NCBI RefSeq assembly: GCF_054482595.1
Contig: NZ_CM137008.1
Strand: one strand, 5' to 3'
DNA length: 64,000 nucleotides
Shown: positions 27,001 through 30,000 of the stretch, piece by piece
How the letters are laid out: each line of letters starts with the position of its first letter
Numbering within the stretch: position 1 is the first letter of the stretch
Program-made: the position numbers

Positions 27001-30000
27001 CGCTTGCATCGTTAAAGGCTAAACCGTTGTCGTTAGTACGAACGTAGTTGATACCAGCGCCATTTTCTTCGATATAGGTTGCGTCGGTGTTACCAGCAAG
27101 CTGATTGATGATTTGGCTGTTCTGCTCAATCATCATATTCGTCGCATTCAACTGAGAACCGTTAACCGCATCCGTACTGGTAGCAGAAATAGTGCCGGCT
27201 TTAACGTTGTGATGGTGCTGGTGGCATCTGTACCATGTGCCGCACTATATCCCTTTTTAACGGAGTCCCATTGTATCGTGTTATTGTTTAGATCCGCTAA
27301 AGCATCGCCAACATTGCCATAAATACCATTTTTCAGTCTGTAATTCGGGGCAGTAACGACACCTTGCGCATTGACGGTAGCCCCCCCACCAAGACGGTCC
27401 GCTACTGACTTACTGATAGCATAAAGCTGTGATCCATTTATGGCATCAGTACTGCTAGTGCTGATATCACCTGCTGCCATATTGACAATTTTTCGCTGAT
27501 CTGTTGTGTTACCCACAGAGACGGAATTATCTTCAGTCGCTACAGAACCCGCACCCAGAGCAACGGAATTTGTCCCTTGAGCACTGGCTTGACCACCAAT
27601 TGCAATGCCATTTTCTAAACCGGCATAACTACCTTGTCCAAGAGCAATAGCATTTGCGCCACCTGTAACACTACCATTACCCAGCGCGATAGCATTTGCG
27701 CCGTCAGCTTTATTCCCCTGACCGATGGCAATTGCACCAGCAGCTACTGCCAGGCTTTGATTGCCCAGAGCAATCGTGTTATCGGCATCTGCAATACCCC
27801 CAGAGCCCAACGCGATACTATTAAGTCCATTGGCCTCCGCTTTGGTACCAACGGCCGTCGCATTTTCAGCGGCTTTGCTCTCAGCACCTATCGCAATAGC
27901 GTTCGCTGTACTGGCAAGTGTTTGTCTGCCTAATGCGAGGCTGTCAGTACCGCTAGCTAACTGCTACGCCCCAGGGCAATTGCGTTTTCTTCAGATGCGA
28001 CGCTACTTGCTACCAGCGCCATTGAATACGCTTTTGACGCATTGGCGCTGTCGCCAAGAGCAATACTCATAATCTCAGTAGCTTTAGCTGCGTTGCCCAG
28101 CGCAGTGGCTTTCTCGCCTGCCGCACTACTGCTTCTTCCCACTGCAATGGCATTCAGACCAGCAGCATTGGATTTATCCCCTTGCGCGATCGAATAATCA
28201 CCACCCGAATTCGCATATCGCCCAAGTGCCATCGAATATTGACCCACTGAACTTGACGATGCGCCCATAGCGATACTTCGTTGACCGGTTGAGACGGCAT
28301 TAACCCCGAATGCCATTGAAGCCGGACCAATTGCATGGGTCATGGCGCCAATAGCGGAACTCCATGTTCCTTCAGCGAAAGCTTTATAACCCACTGCAGT
28401 ACTGGCACCATTACCATCGGTAAAAGCATTTGCCTGTGATTCCTGGCCTATAGCAACCCAGCCAGATCCTGTGCCAACAGGTGTACCAGGTTCATTACCT
28501 GTTGCCAGTGCCTCAAACGACGACAACAACCCACCCGCAACCACGGCAGAAATTAACAGCTTACTGCGCCCGGATTTCTTGCCACGGCTTTTTGCCGTTT
28601 CGCTGGTAACAGTATAATTCCCTGTCGCAGGGTTCCAGATAACTTTAAATATTTTGTTCATTAATGATGTTCTCTATTCCTTGATATAAGCGCAGAAGCT
28701 GCATTTATTTTTTGCTTCTTTTCTGCCGATTTTCAGCAGAGGGAAGGTTGTCAAACTGAATATTCTCCATATTGATGGCTAACTTCAGATATCCCAGGTT
28801 ATTCGGCGATACACCCTTCAGTGTCAAATTAATGTCTTGCCATTGACCTGGTAATAATTTCAATGTGGATTTCATTGATGTGTTGAAAAGTAATTGTTGC
28901 CACCGGGCAAACTCTTTGGCATCGACAGGTTTTTCACCACCCCATGTCGCATTAAAACCAATGTTTGAGATTGGTATACTTAATAAGTTGACCAGTGAAA
29001 TATGAATAACACTGCCATTCTCTGTTGCGTCAATGGATAACACTCGGCCCGCTAAAGCCACCGAACCATTGTTCAGGATGAAATACTTCGTTTTTGCCGG
29101 ATTAAACTCGGTAAAAATAAAAGTGTTTTGTTGATCTTTAACGGATTTAATTACGTGAGTTAAAGTCTTTGTACTGGTTATTATGCCAGTTTGTTGTTTT
29201 TGAATAGTTTCCAGTTGACTCTTTAGCTGTGCTTGTTGTTTTTCAATTAGCTCAATTTTATTGTTATGTTCTTCTTGTTATTTCAGTAAACTACTTTCTG
29301 GCTTGCCTTCTTCAATGTAGTCACATCCCGTTAATGTGCAGAGAACTGAAACAGTGACAGCACTGAAAAAAATCTTCTTCAAGTTCATGTAAAAATCCTT
29401 ATTGCCTCCGACCAGCGATCAATGCCGGTAGAGTTGTCCATTGTATTATTGGTGATCTATGTTGCTTTACATTAATGACAGTGATGGGTGTCGATTAAAT
29501 ATTGTTTTAAGCATTCATCATAAAAATGTATCATTCGTTTCAAAAGATGTCTGTGTTTGTATGAATATATTATTTTTGTGGATTCTAAGGATGATTATTA
29601 ATAAATGTAAAACATGGAAGAAACCATATCTGGAAAAATTTTTACGGATAGTTGATTTTATGAATATGATGATTAAAATTTCACAATTAAATCCGAAAAA
29701 AGAGACGTAAATGCTTGTTAATTAACAAATGATAACTTCTATATATTTTTATTGTTTATAGGTTGCTATTTCGGTAAAAATATATTTTCAGAATATCAAC
29801 CAGCGGTAAATTGATGTAGAGGGAGTGGATTGTTCAGTAATTAGGCGAGCAGACAGGGGAGTCCCCGCATTGACCAGCTAACGCAAGCCAGATGCGGGTT
29901 GATACGATCGTACCAATCGTCTGAGGGGCTTAAAACGCAGTCTTAGAGAATCCAGTCATCTCTTCCAGGCCCATTTCGCGGCCCAGCGCGGTCATTGGGT

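What the first reader, a model, noticed from the sequence alone, without database searches (positions are those of the whole stretch)
29389..29929. AT-rich 540-bp leader upstream of the decayed adhesin operon
The region between yibL and the lipoprotein start is strongly AT-rich with A/T tracts and no convincing ORF. This is the kind of sequence that H-NS-type silencers bind, so the operon may have been transcriptionally silent before it decayed.
Basis: inference. Interest (0 to 1): 0.2.

Follow-up and report, generated by a model that had tools for sequence, protein, structure and literature searches.

The report
Promoter region of decayed adhesin operon
This AT-rich 541-bp gap is the ordinary control region (end of yibL, promoter and untranslated leader) of the E. 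coli sadB-ehaG adhesin operon, which published work already describes as repressed by the silencer protein H-NS.

Summary
Window 29389-29929 is exactly the gap between the yibL stop codon and the start of a SadB-type lipoprotein pseudogene. It has 33.8% GC and no conserved ORF or known RNA family. It is not uniform: a 109-bp GC-rich stretch (56%) next to yibL carries two hairpins, the AT-rich core is 29461-29820 (25.6% GC), and the last 72 bp are 42% GC.

The whole gap belongs to the sadB-ehaG/upaG adhesin module, which K-12 lacks. Across deeply diverged alleles, only one block is conserved: a sigma-70 promoter (-35 at 29611-29606, 18-bp spacer, -10 at 29587-29582). It predicts a 5' UTR of about 187 nt, so only a third of the "leader" is likely transcribed with the operon.

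H-NS repression of UpaG/EhaG is reported in the literature (Totsika 2012, seen here only through citing papers). The composition fits H-NS binding, but predicted curvature is no higher than in shuffled AT-rich sequence.

One small addition: the window's promoter allele changes conserved promoter positions (TTGACA to TTTACA and others). It occurs in 47 of 5,426 genomes, and all nine carriers checked have a broken adhesin gene. Whether silence preceded decay cannot be decided.

Verdict: ordinary and already known; low interest.

The parts
29821..29929 (-). GC-rich (56%) segment just downstream of the yibL stop codon. It carries two hairpins (29916-29899 and 29898-29864). It is the probable yibL 3' end or terminator, but has no U-run in this allele.
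   Evidence: Composition. RNA fold. The same two-hairpin layout occurs in the diverged 042 allele (z = -3.9). In the 7-sequence consensus fold, 5 of 12 pairs keep pairing through changes on both sides.
29612..29820 (-). AT-rich region upstream of the promoter (about 23-28% GC), with the predicted curvature peak near 29700. Candidate H-NS nucleation or bridging site.
   Evidence: Composition. Curvature models: not above shuffles. Sequence is not conserved between alleles but low GC is.
29582..29611 (-). Predicted sigma-70 promoter of the sadB-ehaG operon. The -35 is TTTACA (29611-29606; TTGACA in all other alleles examined), followed by an 18-bp spacer and the -10 TAGAAT (29587-29582). Predicted transcription start is near 29575.
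   Evidence: Best promoter-scan hit, 10 of 12. It is the only strongly conserved block across 7 diverged leaders, at a fixed 170-193 bp from the sadB ATG. The 30-column window 29598-29569 is invariant at 0.57 of columns against 0.18 overall; 0 of 2000 column shuffles reach that.
29389..29575 (-). Predicted 5' UTR of about 187 nt, AT-rich, with the Shine-Dalgarno AAGGA at 29400-29396, 7 nt before the ATG.
   Evidence: Sequence. The fold is no more stable than shuffles (z = -0.8). No Rfam match. No conserved small ORF.
28705..29388 (-). sadB-type (DUF3251) inner-membrane lipoprotein pseudogene. CAA has become TAA at codon 37 (29280-29278).
   Evidence: Translation. PGAP note 'internal stop'. The intact 042 ortholog matches Salmonella SadB, PDB 4C47, at E = 1e-70. 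One mismatch separates it from the intact copy in sibling L015.
25445..28661 (-). Remnants of the EhaG-type trimeric autotransporter adhesin gene: an ESPR signal-peptide fragment at 27957-28661 and a frameshifted remainder at 25445-27951.
   Evidence: RefSeq annotation of the identical record NZ_CP019359.1. About 1.85 kb shorter than the intact 5.1-kb gene of FDAARGOS_943.
29930..30292 (-). yibL, the core gene on the upstream side. The module that K-12 lacks (25379-29928) starts right after its stop codon.

Best explanation
The region is the regulatory intergenic DNA of the sadB-ehaG (sadBA-type) adhesin operon. Read on the minus strand it has four parts:
1. The 3' end of yibL, with two hairpins (29916-29864).
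2. About 210 bp of very AT-rich DNA upstream of the promoter (29820-29612).
3. A sigma-70 promoter (-35 at 29611-29606, -10 at 29587-29582), with transcription starting near 29575.
4. An AT-rich, unstructured 5' UTR of about 187 nt, ending in a Shine-Dalgarno sequence and the sadB start codon.

The AT-rich DNA on both sides of the promoter, continuing into the 37% GC sadB gene, is the kind of tract H-NS coats or bridges to block RNA polymerase. That would keep the operon off under laboratory conditions, as published for ehaG/upaG.

What is shown: the anatomy, the composition, the conservation of the promoter block, and membership of the module that K-12 lacks. What is inferred: the start site, and H-NS binding to this particular allele.

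In this strain's clade the promoter carries substitutions at otherwise invariant positions, and both downstream genes are pseudogenes. The region is therefore probably a non-functional relic here.
For: Locus identity:
- The window is 100% identical to E. coli XH990. The gene order is yibL, then a lipoprotein pseudogene, then adhesin fragments, then lldP.
- EDL933 has the same intergenic region at 94% identity, upstream of an annotated ehaG.
- The lipoprotein is a SadB homolog (PDB 4C47, E = 1e-70).
- The sadBA operon and its deletion in K-12 are described in PMC3953254. K-12 lacks window 25379-29928.

Promoter:
- It is the best scan hit.
- The block TTGACA-N18-TA(A/G)AAT is conserved in 6 other leaders, including a cryptic Escherichia clade and Pseudocitrobacter, always 170-193 bp from the ATG. 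The rest of the leader gives no blastn hit between the two allele types.

Nothing else is encoded there:
- No Rfam family matches.
- The UTR fold has z = -0.8.
- No ORF is conserved.

H-NS:
- The core is 25.6% GC.
- Low GC (30-36%) is kept in all 9 leaders despite the sequence divergence.
- PMC5012682, PMC6956023 and PMC3966885 cite Totsika 2012 for H-NS repression of UpaG/EhaG.
- Salmonella SadA is not expressed in culture (PMC3953254).
Against: - No transcription-start or H-NS binding data were available for this allele, and the primary paper (Totsika 2012) could not be read. I do not know which DNA fragment it tested.
- Predicted curvature is no greater than in composition-matched shuffles.
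- There is no good match to the H-NS high-affinity 10-mer.
- The yibL hairpins lack a U-run in this allele, so read-through from yibL could also feed the operon.
- The promoter block was not recognisable in the two more distant leaders, Citrobacter youngae and Enterobacter wuhouensis.
Confidence: 0.72

Rival explanations
1. The region is a compositional by-product only. On this view the AT-richness is a neutral legacy of a horizontally acquired, fast-evolving module, and H-NS plays no specific part at this promoter. Low expression would come from a missing activator or from the promoter itself.
For: Curvature and motif content are no more than composition gives. Outside the promoter block the sequence is essentially unconstrained between alleles.
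Against: Low GC (30-36%) and a length of about 540-560 bp are kept in leaders that have lost detectable sequence similarity. That suggests composition and length are maintained. Published work attributes UpaG/EhaG repression to H-NS. H-NS binding depends on AT-richness itself, so 'composition only' does not exclude it.
Confidence: 0.15
2. The long leader encodes an unannotated regulatory RNA element: a thermosensor, a riboswitch-like 5' UTR, a small RNA or a leader peptide that controls the operon after transcription starts.
For: A 5' UTR of about 187 nt is long for a bacterial operon, and its length is conserved at 170-193 nt.
Against: No Rfam match at E <= 1 other than a chance miRNA hit. 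The UTR folds no better than shuffles (z = -0.8). The UTR sequence is not conserved between the allele types. The 23-aa and 83-aa ORFs are allele-specific.
Confidence: 0.05
3. The operon has no promoter of its own in this region and is transcribed by read-through from yibL. The conserved block would then be a binding site for some other factor.
For: The hairpins after yibL lack a U-run in the window allele. A second, smaller conserved block (CTGAAAAT, about 29800-29771) has no explanation.
Against: The conserved block fits the sigma-70 consensus closely: TTGACA, an 18-bp spacer and TAAAAT or TAGAAT in 6 of 7 leaders. The 042-type alleles have a hairpin followed by a short U-run after yibL.
Confidence: 0.08

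Closest known systems
Upstream regulatory region of ehaG (EHEC) and upaG (UPEC), repressed by H-NS (Totsika et al. 2012, Appl Environ Microbiol 78:2179, as cited in PMC5012682, PMC6956023 and PMC3966885)
   Same: It is the same chromosomal locus between yibL and lldP. The intergenic region is 94% identical to the one upstream of the annotated ehaG of EDL933. It has the same AT-rich character.
   Different: In this strain both downstream genes are pseudogenes. The -35 is TTTACA rather than TTGACA, with three further changes around the core promoter. The UpaG-type allele (042, MINF_1D) shares only the promoter block with this one. I could not read the primary paper, so I do not know which fragment was tested.
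sadBA operon of Salmonella enterica (Grin et al. 2014, PMC3953254)
   Same: A lipoprotein gene directly upstream of a trimeric autotransporter adhesin, lying between the mtl and lld operons. The lipoprotein is a SadB homolog (PDB 4C47, E = 1e-70). K-12 lacks the module.
   Different: That paper did not use or characterise the native promoter ('native expression conditions ... are unknown'). No Salmonella leader was recovered here for comparison.
Other H-NS-silenced adhesin promoters of E. coli (upaC, upaH, F9 fimbriae, fdeC, cryptic chaperone-usher fimbriae)
   Same: An AT-rich upstream region, a surface adhesin that is silent in laboratory culture, and repression relieved in hns mutants according to the literature.
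   Different: This is a resemblance of mechanism only. H-NS binding was not tested for this sequence.

Membership tests
sadBA / ehaG-upaG operon regulatory region | Lies between the yibL (mtl side) 3' end and the start of a SadB-type lipoprotein gene that is followed by a trimeric autotransporter gene and lldP | tested here: met
   RefSeq annotation of the identical record, and of EDL933 and 042. SadB homology to PDB 4C47, E = 1e-70.
sadBA / ehaG-upaG operon regulatory region | Absent, together with the operon, from strains that lack the adhesin (K-12) | tested here: met
   In K-12, 10 bp replace window 25379-29928. Homology ends 1 bp after the yibL stop codon.
Sigma-70 promoter | -35 and -10 hexamers close to consensus, 16-18 bp apart | tested here: met
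   TTTACA-18-TAGAAT, 10 of 12. Other alleles have TTGACA-18-TA(A/G)AAT.
Sigma-70 promoter | Conserved across diverged orthologous regions at a fixed position | tested here: met
   Invariant fraction 0.57 against 0.18 overall; 0 of 2000 shuffles reach it. The block lies 170-193 bp from the ATG in 7 leaders.
Sigma-70 promoter | Mapped transcription start site or promoter activity | not testable with these tools
   No start-site data were found in the searchable literature.
H-NS-silenced region | An extended tract well above genome-average AT content | tested here: met
   360 bp at 25.6% GC. The stretch 28600-29820 is 33.9% GC, against 49.7% for the window.
H-NS-silenced region | Intrinsic curvature or phased A-tracts beyond what composition gives | tested here: not met
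   Peak of 16.5-20 degrees per helical turn near 29700, reached by 49-100 of 300 dinucleotide shuffles. The wedge parameters were recalled from memory, so the absolute values are approximate.
H-NS-silenced region | High-affinity nucleation motif tCGATAAATT | tested here: not met
   Only four 2-mismatch matches in the region, none better. The window-wide count equals the shuffle expectation.
H-NS-silenced region | H-NS occupancy, and derepression in an hns mutant | not testable with these tools
   Reported for UpaG/EhaG by Totsika 2012 according to citing papers. The primary paper is not held.
Known RNA family (riboswitch, small RNA, thermometer) | Match to an Rfam covariance model, or a fold more stable than shuffles | tested here: not met
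   The only hit is a chance miRNA match at E = 0.79 inside sadB. The UTR has z = -0.8.
Intrinsic terminator (of yibL) | GC-rich hairpin followed by a U-run | tested here: inconclusive
   Hairpins are present and positionally conserved. There is no U-run in the window allele, and the pattern scan finds no terminator there. The 042-type alleles have a short U-run.

The most novel reading that the evidence does not exclude
Promoter erosion tracks pseudogene formation at this locus. The window's promoter allele has G changed to T in the -35, plus changes at -14, at about -2 (with a 1-bp deletion there) and 2 nt upstream of the -35. That puts 5 of the 11 leader differences from the nearest intact relative within 37 bp. 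These 37 bp are otherwise the most conserved part of the leader.

The allele is exact in 47 of 5,426 genomes, and all 9 carriers examined have a broken adhesin gene. A further-decayed relative also has a -10 mutation.
Probability: 0.3. Interest if true: 0.25.

Novelty: already known. Interest (0 to 1): 0.12.

Why it matters
It matters little beyond annotation. The analysis places the probable sadB-ehaG/upaG promoter and a 5' UTR of about 187 nt by comparing diverged alleles. It shows that the whole intergenic region travels with the adhesin module. It also records a minor E. coli clade in which promoter, adhesin and chaperone lipoprotein are all degenerating. That clade could serve as a small natural example for asking whether loss of expression comes before or after loss of the coding sequence. 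The H-NS idea is plausible but already published for this locus.

Tried and rejected
- Rfam scan of 28500-31000 at E <= 1 found nothing relevant.
- ORFs: the plus-strand 83-aa ORF and the minus-strand 23-aa ORF are not conserved across alleles.
- RNA structure in the 5' UTR: z = -0.8.
- DNA curvature with three wedge models gave a peak near 29700 that is high for the window but not above shuffles of the AT-rich core.
- The H-NS 10-mer motif is not enriched beyond composition.
- An ArcA-like box (TGTTAATTAA at about 29726-29717) and paired GATC sites in the 042 allele were noted by eye. Neither is conserved across alleles, so both were dropped.
- Alignment with the K-12 yibL-lldP spacer showed no homology to the leader. 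The K-12 spacer matches the region upstream of lldP instead.
- A degenerate DNA pattern for the SadB motif LTLKGVSPNN, scanned against genome contigs, returned only 6 enterobacterial loci and no Salmonella. Conservation of the promoter beyond Escherichia and Pseudocitrobacter therefore could not be tested, and the block was not recognisable in Citrobacter youngae or Enterobacter wuhouensis.
- Totsika 2012 and Valle 2008 could not be read because they are not held.
- Literature searches for STM3691 with H-NS, Z5029 and c4424 gave nothing useful.

Full report
**Identity of the locus.** The window is 100% identical to E. coli XH990 (NZ_CP019359.1, positions 96001-160000). On the minus strand the gene order is mtlA, mtlD, mtlR, yibL (29930-30292) and then the finding region. 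After that come a DUF3251/SadB-type lipoprotein gene with an internal stop (28705-29388) and a fragmented YadA-family adhesin (25445-28661), followed by lldP. yibT lies on the plus strand between mtlR and yibL. In O157:H7 EDL933 the same 542-bp intergenic region, 94% identical, precedes the lipoprotein gene and the annotated ehaG. The intact lipoprotein of strain 042 matches Salmonella SadB (PDB 4C47) at E = 1e-70. Grin et al. (PMC3953254) describe this lipoprotein-adhesin pair as the sadBA operon between the mtl and lld operons, deleted in K-12. The region is therefore the upstream intergenic DNA of a known operon.

**Check of the observation.** The coordinates are exact.
- GC is 0.338 against 0.497 for the whole window.
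- The 300-bp core at 29497-29796 has GC 0.227, the second-lowest 300-bp window in the 64 kb.
- Among the 12 annotated intergenic regions of at least 80 bp in window 1-38600, it is the longest and ties for the lowest GC.
- It has 14 A or T runs of at least 4 bases, against 5.8 +/- 4.1 per 541 bp window-wide.
- No ORF is conserved. The 83-aa plus-strand ORF is cut to 52 aa in EDL933 and missing from the 042 allele.

The region is not uniform. The segment 29821-29929 is 56% GC, the core 29461-29820 is 25.6% GC, and 29389-29460 is 41.7% GC.

**Anatomy.**
1. The GC-rich fifth next to yibL folds into two hairpins, 29916-29899 and 29898-29864. The very different 042-type sequence has the same layout (z = -3.9). 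In a 7-sequence consensus fold, 5 of 12 pairs keep pairing through changes on both sides. This is probably the yibL 3' end or terminator. The window allele lacks a U-run there, and the pattern scan calls no terminator.
2. K-12 lacks window 25379-29928. Homology stops one base after the yibL stop codon and resumes downstream of the adhesin gene. The whole finding region therefore belongs to the adhesin module, not to the core genome.
3. The leader exists as two deep alleles. One is the EhaG type (window, EDL933), present at megablast level in about 2,260 of 5,426 complete genomes. The other is the type seen in 042, MINF_1D, E. coli SCPM-O-B-8794, Escherichia sp. E1V33 and Pseudocitrobacter. The two give no blastn hit to each other, although the flanking core genes are 94-98% identical. 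Even so, length (538-560 bp) and GC (0.30-0.36) are maintained.
4. Only one block is strongly conserved across all seven: ATTTGACA, an 18-bp spacer, TA(A/G)AATCC, always 170-193 bp upstream of the sadB ATG. In five representative sequences, the 30-column window at 29598-29569 is invariant at 0.57 of columns against 0.18 overall. None of 2,000 column shuffles reaches that value. It coincides with the best hit of the promoter scan: -35 at 29611-29606 and -10 at 29587-29582, matching 10 of 12 consensus positions. I take this as the operon promoter, with a start site near 29575 and a 5' UTR of about 187 nt. This is inference; no start-site data were found.
5. The predicted UTR is unstructured (z = -0.8), matches no Rfam family and is not conserved between alleles. 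A Shine-Dalgarno AAGGA lies 7 nt before the ATG.

**H-NS.** The composition is what H-NS binds, on general knowledge of H-NS preference for AT-rich DNA. Three papers cite Totsika et al. 2012 for H-NS repression of UpaG/EhaG. Grin et al. note that SadA is not expressed in culture. The primary paper is not held, so I cannot say which fragment was tested.

The computations add little. Three wedge models, with parameters recalled from memory, place a curvature peak near 29700. That is about 90-120 bp upstream of the -35 and in the top 0.1-0.25% of the window. But 49-100 of 300 dinucleotide-preserving shuffles of the core reach the same maximum. The H-NS 10-mer has no match better than two mismatches. 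The H-NS reading therefore rests on composition and on the literature, not on any special sequence architecture.

**Decay.** The sadB stop codon comes from a single CAA-to-TAA change at codon 37. It is shared by 13 complete genomes. A sibling strain, Res13-Sevr-PER07-33, has an intact sadB and a leader that is 100% identical, but its adhesin is already frameshifted.

The window's core-promoter allele differs from every other allele examined at four positions. These are 29613, 29609 (TTGACA to TTTACA), 29589 and 29577, the last together with a 1-bp deletion.
- These account for 5 of the 11 leader differences from the nearest intact relative, FDAARGOS_943. That strain is 99.0% identical and has an intact 5.1-kb adhesin gene.
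- The exact allele occurs in 47 of 5,426 genomes.
- All nine carriers examined have a shortened (3.2 kb), frameshifted or split adhesin gene.
- The three EhaG-type genomes with TTGACA have intact adhesin genes.
- OkiPb01695 is a further-decayed relative with a truncated sadB. It also has a -10 change, TAGAAT to TAGAGT.

The carriers are probably one clade, so this counts as a single evolutionary event and the order of changes is unresolved. It fits either promoter loss first or relaxed constraint after the coding sequence broke.

**Verdict.** The region is an ordinary, known regulatory intergenic region.

Noticed in passing
L002 (EDL933) 7137-7120, minus strand; equivalent to window 29388-29371: In O157:H7 EDL933 the sadB-type lipoprotein gene reads ATG AAC TAG, a stop at codon 3. 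PGAP instead starts the 222-aa protein at an ATT codon five codons downstream of the ATG, which removes the charged start of the signal peptide. The chaperone lipoprotein may be crippled in EDL933 even though ehaG is intact.
   Followed up: partly
window 29800-29771: A second, weaker conserved block in the leader (CAGGCTAAATTCTGAAAAT in the 042-type alleles; GATATTCTGAAAAT in the window) lies about 170 bp upstream of the -35. Its function is unknown. It could be a regulator binding site or a second promoter's -10.
   Followed up: no
window 25300-28700 compared with L019 221-5501: The adhesin gene of this clade is about 1.85 kb shorter than the intact 5.1-kb gene of FDAARGOS_943. The two matching blocks overlap by about 49 bp, which suggests a repeat-mediated internal deletion in addition to the frameshifts.
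   Followed up: partly
window 1800-6300: A long low-GC stretch (300-bp minima of 24-26% GC) corresponds to the outer-core LPS genes of the waa cluster: waaO, glycosyltransferase family 8 and 25 genes, rfaY and the O-antigen ligase. This is a known low-GC, variable cluster.
   Followed up: partly
window 36715-38606: The lowest-GC 300-bp window of the 64 kb (37014-37313, 21.7% GC) lies at an orphan Imm57-family immunity gene, next to an RHS core fragment and a yibA pseudogene with an internal stop. This looks like a degenerate Rhs toxin/immunity remnant.
   Followed up: no
window 31385-32851, minus strand: The mechanical ORF list extends mtlD to 488 aa by running upstream through the mtlA-mtlD spacer (32534-32762, 52.8% GC). 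The extension translates as REP-like repeats. The annotated mtlD is 31385-32533.
   Followed up: no
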